Shown: positions 20,836-25,357 of the stretch, piece after piece | How positions within the stretch are numbered: position 1 is the stretch's first letter | How the letters are laid out: every line of letters starts with the position of its first letter | Source: Bacteroidales bacterium | GTDB lineage: Bacteria; Bacteroidota; Bacteroidia; Bacteroidales; DYOH01 | Reading direction: 5' to 3' | Assembly (NCBI GenBank): GCA_030632545.1 | Contig: DAOVUO010000001.1 | Coordinates: 1-28,457 of the forward strand | Length of the DNA: 28,457 bases | Translations under genes and position numbers: made by a program | Notes under the pieces: model-generated | Told to the model about the DNA's origin: nothing | Database searches by the model: none | Seen by the model: only the letters and a program-made list of their open reading frames with translations

Positions 20836-21507
20836 CTAAGGAATACATATTTTTCTTAAAAATGACATATCACCAGCAAAATAATTCAAGTCTACTGGAT
20901 GATCAATCCCATTCACTCTACCTTTATCCGTATACTGCCAAATATGCCACATAAAACCATCTGACAAAACAGGAACATTATTACTATATGCTGCTATCCA
21001 TAAAGGATAGCCAGGAAAATATCCAGAGAGATTATCGTTATAAAAACTTTTTCCTGTATATATTATGGGCTTAACTTTATATTTTTTCTCTGCTAATCTG
21101 AGCCATATTCTCACATTCTCTCTAATTTTTTGTTTATCAGGCAATTTAGAAGCTTGCTCAACATCAAGAATTGGAGGAAGATCGCCACTCTGTAATCTTA
21201 CATATTTAGAATAATTTTTAAACTGCTCAACTGGCGAACTATAAAAATTAAAAAAATGATAAGCACCTCTCACTAATCCAGCTTTTCTAATTAACTTCCA
21301 ATTATAATCAAAATAGGTGTCATGCCAATCAGTACCTTCAGTAGCCTTTACTATCGCAAAACTAATTTGCGTGTTTCTTACTGCACGCCAATCAATATCG
21401 TCCTGATAATGAGACACATCAACGCCAACTACTTGCGATGTATTTTCATCAGAATTACAAGAAAACAAAATAAATAGTAGAATAATAAACTGTGATATTT
21501 TATACAT
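20836..21507 (-). CDS. Glycoside hydrolase family 25 muramidase (lysozyme), predicted lipoprotein
   Basis: GVDVSHYQ, KATEG, RGAYHFF, catalytic DxE in ILDVE, IIYT, LWIAAY, WQYT..G.V.GI..VDLN; lipobox LFS-C. ATG at 21507 preferred over TTG at 21519. Confidence 0.9.
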   Translation of the reverse strand: MYKISQFIILLFILFSCNSDENTSQVVGVDVSHYQDDIDWRAVRNTQISFAIVKATEGTDWHDTYFDYNWKLIRKAGLVRGAYHFFNFYSSPVEQFKNYSKYVRLQSGDLPPILDVEQASKLPDKQKIRENVRIWLRLAEKKYKVKPIIYTGKSFYNDNLSGYFPGYPLWIAAYSNNVPVLSDGFMWHIWQYTDKGRVNGIDHPVDLNYFAGDMSFLRKICIP

Positions 21508-21582
21508 TTGTGCAAACAATTAAAATTTTAAACAAAAAAAATATTTTTTTTCTAAAAAACACTAATTTTTTAAAAAAATGTC

Positions 21583-23281: not shown

Positions 23282-24070
23282 TTATAGTTTTGATTTTATT
23301 ATTTTTTCAATGATATTGGTTAACTCTACAAACTCTTTAACCGAAAGTTGTTCTGGACGTTCAGTTGCAAATTTATCAGGTAAAGTTTCGCCTTGAGTTA
23401 ATCCTTTAAGTGAGTTCCTAAGCACTTTTCGGCGCTGATTAAAGCCTTGTTTAATTACTTGTTTAAATAATTTTTCGTTACAGCCTAAATTTAACTCTTT
23501 CTTTCTTATTAATCTTATAACCCCAGATTTTACTTTTGGTGGTGGTGTAAAAACATTTTCGTTTACTGTAAATAAATATTCAATATCATAATACGCTTGT
23601 AATAACACGCTTAATATTCCATAAATTTTCCCTCCTGGCTTAGCCGCAATTCTTTCAGCTACTTCTTTCTGAAACATTCCAACTAGCTGCGGAATTAATT
23701 CGTAATTTTCGTAAACCCTAAACAAAATTTGACTTGAAATATTATAAGGGAAATTCCCAATAATTGAAAACTGTTCGCCTTTAAAAAAATCGTTCAAATT
23801 GATTTTTAAGAAATCAACAGAATGAATAACATCTTGTTTATAAGGCCATTTATTTTTTAAAAAATCAACAGATTCTTTGTCAATCTCAATTAAATGCAAA
23901 TTTAACTCTTCAATTTCAAACAGAAAATCTGTTAAAACTCCCATTCCTGAACCAATTTCAACAACATTTTTACTCTGACTTATTACTAAGCTATCAACTA
24001 TCTGTTTAGCAATTCCTTTGTCATTCAAAAAATGTTGTCCTAAATGCTTTTTGGGTCTTACATTACTCAT
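23282..24070 (-). CDS. rsmA: 16S rRNA (A1518/A1519)-dimethyltransferase RsmA/KsgA
   Basis: PKKHLGQHFL, EIGSGMG, EID, GNFPYNISS, QKEVAERI, YGILSV, VFTPPPKVKS, QRRKVLRNSL, RPEQLS. Start MSNVRPKK at 24070 overlaps the upstream stop by 8 nt. Confidence 0.96.
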   Translation of the reverse strand: MSNVRPKKHLGQHFLNDKGIAKQIVDSLVISQSKNVVEIGSGMGVLTDFLFEIEELNLHLIEIDKESVDFLKNKWPYKQDVIHSVDFLKINLNDFFKGEQFSIIGNFPYNISSQILFRVYENYELIPQLVGMFQKEVAERIAAKPGGKIYGILSVLLQAYYDIEYLFTVNENVFTPPPKVKSGVIRLIRKKELNLGCNEKLFKQVIKQGFNQRRKVLRNSLKGLTQGETLPDKFATERPEQLSVKEFVELTNIIEKIIKSKL

Positions 24071-25226
24071 CGCTATCTCCTTCCTCAATAAAAATATATT
24101 CACCATCTACCTTAAACAGAGGTAGTTTAATTACTGCATTCTTCATTTTTTCTTCTATCTTCTTAATATCTCTCAAACGCTTTTCTTTTTCGGCAGGTTC
24201 TAAATTATTTAGGCTCTCACTTATTTCACCTTTTTGTGATTTTAAATCATTGAGCTTCCACTGCTGAACTTTCACTTGATCTTTGATAATTTCTAAGGAA
24301 TCAATAATTGATTTTTCCAATAATGCTGCGCTAGTTAAATTCTGCTTTGCCATTAATCCATCGTAAAACAAACTGATTATTTCCTTTATTTCATCTGTAT
24401 TATTATCACTTTTTAAATCAGCCACTACATCAACCACAATTTGATGAACAATATCTGAAATAGCATTTTTTAATGTAGATTCTATTGATGATCCGATTAA
24501 AGGAATTCTTGAAAGTGTTTTAATATCATTACTATTCTTTACAGCAGATTGTACTTTCACATCAACATATTCTTTTAAATCTTGATCAAATCTTTGAGAA
24601 AAACTCTCAAAAATCTCCTTTACTTTATTCGTTGTAATTTCAATAAGATTTTCCTTTCGAGGCAAAATTATGTCTGAATTTATCTTATCAAAAACAGGAG
24701 TCCCAGAGCCAATTTCTGTCTGTACCCCAGAAATAATATTCACAACAACCCTATCAGAAACTTCCTCGGACAAAATATTTATTAAACGGTTAAATTGTTT
24801 AAAAATAAGATTTTTAGAAATATCTATTAATTGCAATTTACTCAAACGTACAAAAATTGAAACTACTCTAAGCAAACGAAGCCACCGCAAACTTCCAACA
24901 GGAATACTCCCAAGTACATCATACCAATGCATTATTGGATAATAATACCACTTTTCGTAATCCTTATTTTTAATAGCTAAAATCCATTGAAAAATTATTT
25001 CAATAAAATAAAAGCCTACAAAATACAAATCATAAAGCCAAAATTGCTTATGAAGTGGCAAATAAAAAGCATGAAATCCTGTTAATTTTAAGTGTAAAAA
25101 ATTATTTACAGGTTCGTAAGCATAAATACTATCAAAAACTATCCAAATTAAATTAACAAACAATACTATTAAGACTACAATATCTACAAAAATAATTCTC
25201 AGAATTTGTTCTTTTGTTTTACTCAT
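24063..25226 (-). CDS. Ion_trans-like voltage-sensor (S1-S4) membrane protein lacking a pore domain, with a large soluble helical C-terminus
   Basis: S2 DLYFVGFYFIE, S3 WYDVLGSIP, S4 LRWLRLLRVVSIFVRLSK; no later TM pair or selectivity-filter motif. Likely start MSKTK at 25226 (ORF track gives 25241). Confidence 0.75.
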   Translation of the reverse strand: MSKTKEQILRIIFVDIVVLIVLFVNLIWIVFDSIYAYEPVNNFLHLKLTGFHAFYLPLHKQFWLYDLYFVGFYFIEIIFQWILAIKNKDYEKWYYYPIMHWYDVLGSIPVGSLRWLRLLRVVSIFVRLSKLQLIDISKNLIFKQFNRLINILSEEVSDRVVVNIISGVQTEIGSGTPVFDKINSDIILPRKENLIEITTNKVKEIFESFSQRFDQDLKEYVDVKVQSAVKNSNDIKTLSRIPLIGSSIESTLKNAISDIVHQIVVDVVADLKSDNNTDEIKEIISLFYDGLMAKQNLTSAALLEKSIIDSLEIIKDQVKVQQWKLNDLKSQKGEISESLNNLEPAEKEKRLRDIKKIEEKMKNAVIKLPLFKVDGEYIFIEEGDSDE

Positions 25227-25357
25227 TTTCTTATAATTCAATTTTCTCTAATTTCACAAATCAATCATAAATAAGTCACTATCAATATAAAAAGCACTCT
25301 TAAAAGAGTTTAAAATCAGACAATTGACGACTTTATAAAAAAAACTAAGCTTATGGT

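What the first reader, a model, noticed from the sequence alone, without database searches (positions are those of the whole stretch)
24063..25226. Pore-less bacterial voltage-sensor protein (S1-S4 plus cytoplasmic helical effector)
Seen (ORF-track numbering): S1 with D20 and N30; S2 with D71, aromatic Y78 and E81; S3 WYD108VLGSIP; S4 with R119, R122, R125 at i+3 spacing, then R132 and K135. After S4 about 255 residues are amphipathic or charged, with no S5-P-S6 hairpin or filter motif, ending in a charged coiled-coil-like tail. Established: this charge pattern defines voltage-sensing domains, and pore-less ones are known mainly from eukaryotes (Hv1, VSP phosphatases, TMEM266). N30 sits where Hv1 has its selectivity Asp and the S4 reads RWxRxxR rather than RxWRxxR, which argues against a plain Hv1 proton channel. 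Inference: a membrane-potential sensor coupled to an unknown cytoplasmic output. From memory, similar proteins occur in marine proteobacteria as unannotated ion transporters; this was not checked.
Basis: partly seen in the sequence, partly recalled or inferred. Interest (0 to 1): 0.68.

Follow-up and report, generated by a model that had tools for sequence, protein, structure and literature searches.

The report
Bacterial voltage sensor without a pore
This gene encodes a membrane protein whose first third is a true relative of the voltage-sensing module of nerve-type ion channels, but it is joined to an unknown helical cytoplasmic domain instead of an ion pore; the family occurs in hundreds of bacterial species and has never been studied.

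Summary
These residues are almost invariant in 230 relatives: D/E71 99%, F/Y78 99%, E/D81 99.6%, D/E108 99.6%, R122 99%, R125 100%.

Pfam does not recognise the protein. A profile-profile comparison nonetheless aligns S1-S3 in register with bacterial Ion_trans channels (probability 95.9%, E 5.8e-9; reversed control 4%, E 0.01). A second run extends the alignment through S4.

After S4 there is no membrane-spanning segment, no selectivity-filter motif and no match to S5-P-S6. The roughly 200-residue conserved helical domain matches no known family.

The family is found in at least 587 species genomes, including Bacteroidota, Calditrichota, Marinobacter, Alcanivorax, Desulfobacterota and spirochaetes. 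Databases call it "hypothetical" or "ion transporter". It has no conserved gene neighbour. A Marinobacter homologue is present in RNA-seq assemblies.

It fails both Hv1 signatures: S4 lacks RxWRxxR, and mid-S1 has Asn, not Asp.

Best reading: a pore-less voltage sensor coupled to a new cytoplasmic domain. Voltage sensing itself is untested.

Two reviews (2023, 2024) state that prokaryotic voltage sensors always come with a pore. This scan has already noted other pore-less bacterial sensors of different architecture on other DNA.

The parts
24063..25241 (-). Whole ORF: 392 aa from TTG 25241, more likely 387 aa from ATG 25226. Stop codon TAA at 24063-24065.
   Evidence: The public gene call is 387 aa (P0002). 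Full-length homologues of 335-390 aa exist in at least 587 species genomes.
25122..25208 (-). S1 (residues about 12-40), with D20 on the inner side, N30 in the middle and D37 on the outer side.
   Evidence: Highest hydropathy in the protein: KD19 3.0 here, 2.5 as the family mean. The AF2 model has a helix at 10-41 with pLDDT 82-91. It aligns to Kv S1, with D20, N30 and D37 opposite Kv D, S and E.
25047..25121 (-). S1-S2 periplasmic loop (residues 41-65), with two short helices and conserved Y60 and H64.
   Evidence: AF2 helices at 43-52 and 54-65, pLDDT above 90. Y60 is conserved in 92% and H64 in 83%. A sub-branch carries an insert of about 150 aa here. The periplasmic placement is inferred from topology.
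24972..25046 (-). S2 (residues 66-90): D71, F74, Y78-x-x-E81 (charge-transfer-centre pattern) and W86.
   Evidence: Conservation. It aligns in register with the Kv S2 acidic-aromatic-acidic pattern. The family consensus F78-xx-E81-xxx-R85 fits the general VSD S2 motif [FYW]xx[ED]xxx[RK] quoted in PMC4969798. This protein has Q85.
24894..24950 (-). S3 (residues 98-116): W98, P102, H105-W-Y-D108, G111, P114.
   Evidence: D/E108 99.6% and P114 100%. It aligns to the Kv S3 motif IIDlLSilP. The S3-S4 connection is about 12 residues shorter than in Kv.
24834..24893 (-). S4 (residues 117-136): R119, R122, R125; small residue S128 where a fourth charge would sit; then R132 and K135.
   Evidence: Conservation (S/A/G/T at position 128 in 94%). 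It aligns with the Kv S4 arginine ladder. AF2 helix at 120-135, pLDDT about 75.
24708..24833 (-). Post-S4 linker (I139-D140) and a long amphipathic helix carrying the near-invariant acidic motif E159-E160-x-S-D163-R164.
   Evidence: Conservation. AF2 helix at 145-178. It is not hydrophobic. A role as coupling element is inference.
24234..24707 (-). Conserved all-helical cytoplasmic domain (residues 179-336), with P182, P194, Y225, P247, G250, D275 and the QVKVQQW328K motif. It may be two repeats of about 100 aa.
   Evidence: AF2 model is all helix, pLDDT 80-95 over most of it. No Pfam, NCBIfam, PADLOC or PDB sequence match. Internal repeat hint: hhalign P 2.7e-4, probability 41%. No TM segment.
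24066..24233 (-). Lineage-specific charged coiled-coil-like tail (residues 337-392).
   Evidence: Present only in the closest relatives (P0003, P0004, P0008, P0010) in alignment A1. The AF2 helix runs to 369, then the model is disordered with pLDDT below 50.
23282..24070 (-). Downstream rsmA/ksgA gene. Its likely start ATG at 24070 overlaps the target's stop by 8 nt (ATGAGTAA).
   Evidence: Pfam RrnaAD, E 3.9e-51. Sequence read. The same arrangement occurs in L002, L003 and L142.

Best explanation
The gene encodes an inner-membrane protein of an uncharacterised, widespread bacterial family.

**Shown**
- Residues about 12-136 form a compact S1-S4 voltage-sensor domain homologous to those of Kv and BacNav channels.
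- It has three S4 arginines, an aromatic-x-x-Glu charge-transfer centre in S2 and an Asp in S3.
- No pore domain follows.

**Inferred**
- Topology: N-terminus and C-terminal domain in the cytoplasm, S1-S2 loop in the periplasm.
- Mechanism: a change in membrane potential shifts S4.
- The shift passes through the short conserved I-D linker to the long post-S4 helix with the invariant EE-x-SD-R acidic cluster.
- That helix may pair with the inner S4 charges R132/K135 or with the basic S2-S3 loop.
- The movement rearranges a roughly 200-residue helical cytoplasmic domain, possibly a duplicated unit.
- The output would be a change in conformation, oligomeric state or partner binding, not ion flow through a dedicated pore.

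What the output acts on is unknown.
For: **Real gene under selection**
- 464 clusters at 90% identity and 300 at 50% identity, matching over the full length.
- At least 587 species genomes in several phyla.
- One copy per genome among the relatives searched.
- A Marinobacter homologue lies in RNA-seq contigs at depth 10-64, against 0-9 immediately upstream.

**VSD homology**
- hhalign probability 95.9%, E 5.8e-9 for S1-S3.
- hhalign probability 84%, E 7.6e-6 for S1-S4.
- Reversed controls: probability 3-5%, E about 0.01.
- Recurrent sub-threshold PF00520 hits in 14 of 50 members.
- 89 of the top 100 named Atlas clusters for the N-terminal domain are Ion_trans.
- The only Foldseek hits are NavAb and KCNQ1.

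**Functional charges nearly invariant**.

**No pore**
- Hydropathy and motif scans.
- The Kv alignment ends at S4.

**Topology**
- The positive-inside pattern is read directly from the sequence.

**Coupling element**
- E159, E160 and D163 are conserved in 97-99%.
Against: - No experiment shows charge movement.
- Pfam's Ion_trans model misses this protein entirely.
- Structural matches to solved VSDs are statistically weak: Foldseek E 3.7 and 7.9, TM 0.35-0.44.
- I could not inspect model coordinates, so it is unconfirmed that the arginines face the acidic residues.
- The S3-S4 hairpin is about 12 residues shorter than in Kv, which might limit S4 travel.
- The cytoplasmic domain has no recognisable enzymatic or signalling fold, and there is no conserved gene neighbour. 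The 'output' is therefore undefined.
- A same-genus genome carries a copy that has lost several of the key charges, so the sensor function is dispensable or changeable in at least one lineage.
Confidence: 0.5

Rival explanations
1. The voltage-sensor domain is itself the conduction path. It would carry a voltage-gated proton, cation or anion leak through the S1-S4 bundle, as in Hv1 or the omega pores of S4 mutants. The cytoplasmic domain would only regulate gating or assemble the protein.
For: - Only three S4 arginines are followed by a conserved small residue (S/A/G/T128 in 94%) where a fourth charge would sit. From my own recollection, not checked here, Hv1 has Asn at the corresponding place.
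- Replacing an S4 arginine by a small residue opens gating-pore currents in NavAb and Nav channels (PMC13095418).
- Conserved His residues sit at both ends of the bundle: H64 83%, H105 85%.
- The family is concentrated in marine and saline bacteria.
Against: - Both Hv1 signatures fail. S4 has no RxWRxxR, and mid-S1 has Asn rather than Asp (PMC4969798).
- In hHv1 the D112N change abolishes proton selectivity and gives Cl- permeation (PMC4969798).
- An uncontrolled leak would be costly for a bacterium.
- Nothing in the data shows conduction.
Confidence: 0.2
2. The S1-S4 bundle is a voltage-sensor-like scaffold that no longer responds to voltage. This would resemble the S1-S4 of non-voltage-gated 6TM channels. 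The protein would sense a ligand, lipid, pH or metal, or simply anchor the helical cytoplasmic domain to the membrane.
For: - The S3-S4 hairpin is very short.
- The periplasmic loop is conserved, with Y60 and H64, and one sub-branch has a 150-aa insert there. This looks like a ligand-facing surface.
- A same-genus copy keeps the fold but has lost D20, N30, D37, D71 and R132.
Against: - The complete set of buried charges and the aromatic of the charge-transfer centre are nearly invariant across phyla. That is hard to explain unless they work together as in a functional sensor.
- From general knowledge, not tested here, degenerate sensor-like domains usually lose the arginine ladder.
Confidence: 0.2
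3. It is a detached sensor subunit that assembles in trans with a separately encoded pore-only channel or a transporter and confers voltage dependence on it.
For: - The window's genome has two further K+ pore (Ion_trans_2) genes besides its one Kv-type channel.
- A 2026 paper title and abstract report functional co-assembly of a VSP sensor domain with pore-only Kir2.1 (PMC13755035, listed; the paper itself was not read).
Against: - No pore or transporter gene is a conserved neighbour in any lineage examined.
- The pore genes lie on other contigs.
- The large conserved cytoplasmic domain is unexplained by this model.
Confidence: 0.07
4. The C-terminal half hides an unconventional pore domain, so the protein is a divergent channel after all.
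For: - Some databases name members 'ion transporter'.
- Moderately hydrophobic amphipathic helices lie around residues 250-277.
Against: - No segment after S4 reaches transmembrane hydropathy. The family median maximum is 1.07, and only 7 of 230 barely exceed 1.6.
- There is no conserved filter-like motif.
- No alignment to S5-P-S6.
- The AF2 model shows soluble-type helices.
Confidence: 0.03

Closest known systems
Voltage-sensor domains (S1-S4) of prokaryotic Kv and BacNav channels, Pfam Ion_trans PF00520
   Same: - Four helices with the same order of signature residues: S1 acidic and polar residues, S2 acidic-aromatic-xx-acidic, S3 Asp-xx-x-x-Pro, and an S4 Arg ladder at i+3 spacing.
- Profile-profile homology at probability 84-96%.
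   Different: - No S4-S5 linker or S5-P-S6 pore.
- Not detected by the Pfam model for this protein.
- The S3-S4 connection is about 12 residues shorter.
- Only three ladder arginines, with a small residue at the fourth place.
- The S1-S2 loop contains two conserved short helices.
- A helical cytoplasmic domain of about 200-250 aa follows.
Hv1 / HVCN1 voltage-gated proton channel
   Same: - Pore-less S1-S4 protein with three S4 arginines, followed by a non-basic residue.
- A C-terminal helical or coiled-coil region.
   Different: - Lacks RxWRxxR. This protein has RWLRLLR and the family consensus is RFLRLLR.
- Lacks the mid-S1 Asp (Asn in 95%).
- Keeps the outer S2 acidic residue that Hv1 lacks (PMC4969798).
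- Has a much larger cytoplasmic domain.
- Hv1 is reported only from eukaryotes (PMC10377628, PMC13095418).
Voltage-sensing phosphatases (Ci-VSP / TPTE)
   Same: A sensor domain coupled through a post-S4 linker to a cytoplasmic effector rather than a pore.
   Different: - The effector here is an all-helical domain with no phosphatase, C2 or any known catalytic motif.
- The family is bacterial.
TMEM266 (HVRP1 / C15orf27)
   Same: A pore-less sensor with a long cytoplasmic tail of unknown output, no mid-S1 Asp and no known conductance.
   Different: - TMEM266 carries the RxWRxxR motif (PMC4969798).
- It is a vertebrate protein.
- No detectable sequence relationship was seen here beyond the shared sensor fold.
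Other pore-less bacterial sensor families noted earlier in this scan (AI notes e1-5253137, e1-931121, e1-1565347 and others)
   Same: Bacterial proteins with a channel-type voltage sensor and no pore.
   Different: - Those have other partners: a 1211-aa protein, HAMP-like or PH modules, an HPP domain, or 132-aa stand-alone sensors.
- By their summaries they are closest to PF00520-type Kv sensors.
- None was reported with this helical EEVSDR/QVKVQQWK domain.
- I did not test those notes.

Membership tests
Voltage-sensor domain superfamily (S1-S4 of voltage-gated ion channels) | Detectable homology to S1-S4 of Ion_trans channels | tested here: met
   - hhalign probability 95.9%, E 5.8e-9 for S1-S3.
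- hhalign probability 84%, E 7.6e-6 for S1-S4.
- Reversed controls: probability 3-5%.
- The Pfam HMM alone fails for this protein, but 14 of 50 members give weak hits.
Voltage-sensor domain superfamily (S1-S4 of voltage-gated ion channels) | S4 with basic residues at every third position | tested here: met
   R119, R122 and R125 are conserved in 88%, 99% and 100%, followed by R/K132 and K/R135.
Voltage-sensor domain superfamily (S1-S4 of voltage-gated ion channels) | Charge-transfer centre: aromatic-x-x-acidic in S2 plus Asp in S3, and an outer S2 acidic residue ten positions earlier | tested here: met
   - F/Y78 99%, E/D81 99.6%, D/E108 99.6%, D/E71 99%.
- The family consensus fits the general S2 motif [FYW]xx[ED]xxx[RK] (PMC4969798).
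- This protein has Q at the last position.
Voltage-sensor domain superfamily (S1-S4 of voltage-gated ion channels) | Four-helix-bundle fold superposable on solved sensors | tested here: inconclusive
   - Domain model: pLDDT 87, pTM 0.72.
- The only PDB hits are NavAb (6c1p) and KCNQ1 (9vei), at E 3.7 and 7.9, TM 0.35 and 0.44.
- Model coordinates could not be inspected.
Voltage-sensor domain superfamily (S1-S4 of voltage-gated ion channels) | Voltage-dependent charge movement | not testable with these tools
   Needs electrophysiology or voltage-clamp fluorometry.
Voltage-gated cation channels (Ion_trans, 6TM) | S5-P-loop-S6 pore domain after S4 | tested here: not met
   - No TM-grade hydropathy after S4.
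- No conserved filter motif.
- The alignment to the Kv profile stops at S4.
Hv1 proton channels | S4 signature RxWRxxR | tested here: not met
   This protein has R-W-L-R-L-L-R and the family consensus is R-F-L-R-L-L-R. The aromatic is one position off and is not a conserved Trp. Signature as given in PMC4969798.
Hv1 proton channels | Asp in the middle of S1 (hHv1 Asp112), required for proton selectivity | tested here: not met
   - The mid-S1 polar position is N30: Asn in 219 of 230 and Asp in 6 of 230.
- Equivalence to Asp112 is inferred from alignment to the Kv mid-S1 Ser. It was not aligned directly to Hv1.
Voltage-sensing phosphatases | PTEN-like phosphatase and C2 domain after the sensor | tested here: not met
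   No Pfam or NCBIfam family at E up to 10 in the C-terminal 250 residues. No PDB sequence match.
DUF445 (PF04286), a lead from the ESM Atlas for the C-terminal domain | Profile similarity to DUF445 proteins | tested here: not met
   hhalign of the family profile against 30 Bacteroidota DUF445 proteins gives probability 1.8%, E 0.028.

The most novel reading that the evidence does not exclude
This is the most widespread non-channel voltage sensor of bacteria. It would be a protein that reads the membrane potential with a genuine S1-S4 sensor and converts it into a cytoplasmic conformational signal through a previously undescribed helical domain. It is present in cultivable, genetically tractable marine bacteria (Marinobacter, Alcanivorax). 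If so, direct voltage sensing uncoupled from ion conduction is not a eukaryotic invention.
Probability: 0.4. Interest if true: 0.8.

Novelty: new variant of a known kind. Interest (0 to 1): 0.62.

Why it matters
**What the reviews say**
[quoted passage not shown] **What this family shows**
- It is a clear sequence-level counter-example to the first statement.
- It occurs in hundreds of species, including cultured and sequenced Marinobacter and Alcanivorax strains in which knock-outs and expression are routine.

**Why that is useful**
- Bacterial membrane potential is now known to be dynamic (title and abstract of PMC9934018, seen in the search list; the paper was not read).
- Proteins that read the potential directly, other than channels, are essentially unknown.
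- This family gives a concrete, testable candidate.
- It is also a compact natural sensor with a minimal S3-S4 loop, which could interest people who study or engineer voltage sensors.

Tried and rejected
- **Family libraries.** Pfam, NCBIfam and PADLOC scans of the protein gave nothing. The only hit was a chance FliP match, E 0.059.
- **PDB by sequence.**
  - The full-length profile (A1) found one sensor, a NaChBac-Nav1.7 chimera at E 2.2, plus insignificant Sca-family and CCDC90B matches.
  - The N-domain profile (A2) found only insignificant hits to sodium-channel beta-1 (E 0.065) and a complex I subunit (E 2.6).
- **Foldseek, whole model.** It returned only long-helix noise with E at or above 0.3: chemoreceptor signalling domains, Tc toxin shells and SMC coiled coils. 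I do not read these as homology.
- **DUF445.** The ESM Atlas suggested DUF445 for the C-terminal domain at score 0.65. Profile-profile comparison rejected it at probability 1.8%.
- **'SecA' names.** The Atlas also showed automatic 'SecA' names for sister clusters. I did not follow these. The listed NCBI and UniProt names I looked up are 'hypothetical' or 'ion transporter'.
- **Gene neighbourhood, 80 loci.** No partner is conserved across phyla:
  - an amidase downstream in the Marinobacter group;
  - an amidohydrolase upstream in Cyclobacteriaceae-type loci;
  - rsmA downstream in the window's lineage;
  - T9SS cargo genes or LPG-synthase-like genes elsewhere.
- **Long sub-branch.** The 150-aa loop insert has no Pfam match.
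- **Literature.** Six searches found no paper on a bacterial pore-less sensor family of this kind.
  - Inspecting AF2 coordinates.
  - A multimer prediction.
  - A direct alignment to Hv1, Ci-VSP or TMEM266, because no tool gave me those sequences.
Full report
**The gene**

The minus strand carries an ORF at 24063..25241. It is 392 aa from a TTG; an ATG at 25226 gives 387 aa and is the start used by the public gene call. The finding's residue numbers follow the 392-aa frame, and I keep that numbering.

The window is AT-rich, about 30% GC. The flanking genes are housekeeping genes:
- trigger factor
- rsmA/ksgA
- a biotin-protein ligase
- rsfS
- ftsH

The likely rsmA start overlaps the target's stop by 8 nt, ATGAGTAA. 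The same arrangement occurs in three related loci: L002, L003 and L142.

**The observation**

Hydropathy shows one strongly hydrophobic helix (S1), one moderately hydrophobic helix (S2) and two weakly hydrophobic helices (S3, S4). Nothing of transmembrane grade follows residue 140.

**The family**

- Word-seeded search found 464 clusters at 90% identity.
- Exhaustive HMMER search found 300 clusters at 50% identity.
- Nearly all match over the full length and are 335-390 aa long. None carries a precomputed Pfam domain.
- Lineages include Bacteroidota (Bacteroidales, Cytophagales, Flavobacteriales, Chitinophagales), Calditrichota, Gammaproteobacteria (many Marinobacter, plus Alcanivorax, Halomonadaceae and Moraxellaceae), Desulfobacterota, Spirochaetaceae, Bdellovibrionales and Balneolales.
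- Source names are 'hypothetical protein' or 'Ion transporter' / 'ion transporter', for example UniProt W5Z2K9 and R8B624.
- Within the window's own order the gene is patchy. It was found in 7 of 41 genomes searched, including all four genomes of the window's family, always as a single match.
- A sub-branch of 445-488 aa has an insert of about 150 residues between S1 and S2. The insert has no Pfam match.

**Is the N-terminal domain a voltage sensor?**

Direct HMM searches are almost blind to it:
- Pfam gives nothing for this protein, even at E up to 10.
- The six-frame PF00520 search of the whole genome finds only one canonical Kv-type channel, on another contig.
- A PDB profile search finds one sensor, a NaChBac chimera, at E 2.2.

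Profile-profile comparison is clear. All three runs below use hhalign.

| Query profile | Target profile | Probability | E-value | Region aligned |
|---|---|---|---|---|
| A1 (50 sequences) | 120 homologues of the genome's own Kv channel | 72% | 3.5e-5 | residues 19-130, S1-S4 |
| Family, 230 sequences | same Kv profile | 84% | 7.6e-6 | 91 columns, residues 19-130 to Kv 22-124 |
| Family, 230 sequences | diverse Ion_trans profile, 41 sequences, mostly from 30 Bacteroidota genomes | 95.9% | 5.8e-9 | S1-S3 |
| Family, 230 sequences | reversed-sequence controls | 3-5% | about 0.01 | 13-23 columns |

The register is the canonical one:
- D20, N30 and D37 lie opposite the Kv S1 D, S and E.
- D71 and E81 lie opposite the two S2 acidic residues.
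- The aromatic at position 78 sits three residues before E81.
- D108 lies opposite the S3 Asp of IIDlLSilP.
- R119, R122 and R125 lie opposite the Kv arginine ladder.

Further support, each weak alone:
- 14 of 50 members give sub-threshold PF00520 hits, best E 0.008.
- 89 of the 100 nearest named Atlas clusters for the N-terminal domain are Ion_trans clusters, score 0.78, a lead only.
- The AF2 model of the domain (pLDDT 87, pTM 0.72) has just two PDB hits. Both are voltage-gated channels, NavAb 6c1p and KCNQ1 9vei, at E 3.7 and 7.9 and TM 0.35 and 0.44.

The signature residues are close to invariant over 230 sequences. Percentages are listed under the observation check.

I conclude that the domain is a divergent but genuine member of the voltage-sensor superfamily. 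It has three peculiarities:
- The S3-S4 connection is about 12 residues shorter than in Kv.
- There are only three ladder arginines, followed by a conserved small residue at position 128.
- The S1-S2 loop is structured and conserved, with Y60 and H64.

**Is there a pore?**

No.
- The family's mean hydropathy after S4 peaks at 0.74.
- The per-sequence maximum has a median of 1.07. Only 7 of 230 sequences exceed 1.6, by a hair.
- Filter-like motifs are rare and not conserved.
- The alignment to full-length Kv stops at the end of S4.
- AF2 models the rest as soluble-type helices.

**The C-terminal domain**

- A short conserved I139-D140 linker follows S4.
- Next comes a long helix (145-178) carrying the almost invariant E159-E160-x-S162-D163-R164 motif.
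- Further helices follow, punctuated by invariant P182, P194, P247 and G250.
- The conserved part ends with QVKVQQW328K329.
- Residues 337-392 of this protein form a charged helix plus a disordered end. Only the nearest relatives share them.
- Nothing known matches the domain: not Pfam, NCBIfam, PADLOC or PDB sequences, and no significant Foldseek hit.
- The DUF445 lead from the Atlas failed.
- The domain may be an internal duplication. Residues 153-193 align with 253-294 at hhalign P 2.7e-4 and probability 41%, sharing an (E/A)-(V/I)-S-D motif. This is weak.

**Context and expression**

Across 80 loci, no neighbour is conserved beyond single lineages. The protein therefore appears to act alone, or with partners encoded elsewhere.

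In four RNA-seq runs of a cultured organism, the M. salarius homologue region (L062) is covered as follows:
- Contigs start about 95 nt upstream of the gene and run on into the downstream amidase.
- Their depth is 10-64, against 0-9 for the region just upstream.

This indicates transcription. Assembled contigs cannot prove a single transcript.

**Mechanism**

*Shown:*
- a sensor homologue with a complete charge set
- no pore
- a conserved acidic helix directly after S4
- a conserved novel helical domain

*Inferred:*
- N-in and C-in topology, from the positive-inside distribution
- S4 movement with voltage
- coupling through the post-S4 helix to the cytoplasmic domain
- an output that is conformational rather than conductive

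I give this full chain about 0.5.

The main rivals are:
- Conduction through the sensor itself (0.2). The small residue at the fourth ladder position favours it. The failure of both Hv1 signatures argues against it; PMC4969798 gives RxWRxxR and Asp112, and records that D112N is Cl- permeable.
- A sensor-like scaffold that no longer senses voltage (0.2).
- A detached sensor serving a pore encoded elsewhere (0.07). The genome does have two extra K+ pore genes, but on another contig.
- A cryptic pore in the C-terminal half (0.03).

**Comparison with what is known**

It works like the pore-less sensor proteins of eukaryotes (Hv1, VSP, TMEM266), but it is a member of none of them. See the membership table.

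Two reviews state that prokaryotic sensors always come with a pore, and that Hv-type proteins are absent from bacteria and archaea (PMC10377628; PMC13095418). Six literature searches found no description of a family like this.

This scan's own earlier notes list several other pore-less bacterial sensor families on other DNA, with different partner domains. I did not test those notes. They indicate that the general phenomenon recurs. None was reported with this C-terminal domain.

**Verdict**

- It is a new variant of a known kind: the voltage-sensor superfamily in a new bacterial architecture.
- The family is large, partly cultivable and expressed, so the question is experimentally accessible.

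Noticed in passing
L142:430-1395 (same-genus genome G001, contig C108): The orthologous position in a same-genus genome is again followed by rsmA with an 8-nt overlap, but the copy there is only 35% identical. It has lost D20, N30, D37, D71, R132, the EEVSDR motif and the QVKVQQWK motif, while keeping D108 and R119/R122/R125. The genome search also counted one TAA inside its match. This points to relaxed selection or a change of function in that species.
   Followed up: partly
P0227, P0228, P0231, P0243, P0263 (homologues of 445-488 aa): A sub-branch of the family carries an insert of about 150 residues, mostly charged, between S1 and S2. That is the predicted periplasmic loop. The insert has no Pfam match and might be a ligand-facing domain.
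   Followed up: partly
window 24063-24070: The stop of the sensor gene and the likely start of rsmA overlap as ATGAGTAA. The same gene order occurs in L002, L003 and L142. This suggests co-transcription or translational coupling with a ribosomal RNA methyltransferase in this Bacteroidales lineage only.
   Followed up: partly
L062:5853-5925 (Marinobacter salarius, just upstream of the homologue): Many unrelated RNA-seq contigs of high depth (up to about 550) join or end in this roughly 70-nt stretch. It behaves like a dispersed repeat (REP-like element) or a highly expressed small RNA copy.
   Followed up: no
L001:1015-1836 (own genome, contig C284): The genome's one canonical Kv-type channel (TVGYGD filter) ends in a Cys/His-rich tail, C-x2-C ... 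C-x2-C. Some homologues are annotated with a zinc-ribbon Pfam domain (PF13248).
   Followed up: no
ESM Atlas clusters: The nearest feature-space neighbours include large Actinomycetota clusters of 256-302 aa named 'putative ion transporter', mostly without Pfam hits. There are also 110-133-aa sensor-only clusters in Actinomycetota and Minisyncoccota. These may be further pore-less sensor families. Two sister clusters carry an automatic 'SecA' name that looks like a mis-annotation.
   Followed up: no
L023/L024/L032 and other Marinobacter-type loci; L006/L012/L025: Two unrelated amide-hydrolase genes sit next to the homologue in two phyla. An amidase-signature enzyme lies directly downstream in 22 gammaproteobacterial loci. 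An Amidohydro_1 enzyme lies directly upstream in Cytophagales loci. This may be coincidence.
   Followed up: partly
window 20836-21519 (-): A GH25 lysozyme-family gene (Pfam E 1.5e-46) sits among the housekeeping genes upstream of trigger factor.
   Followed up: no
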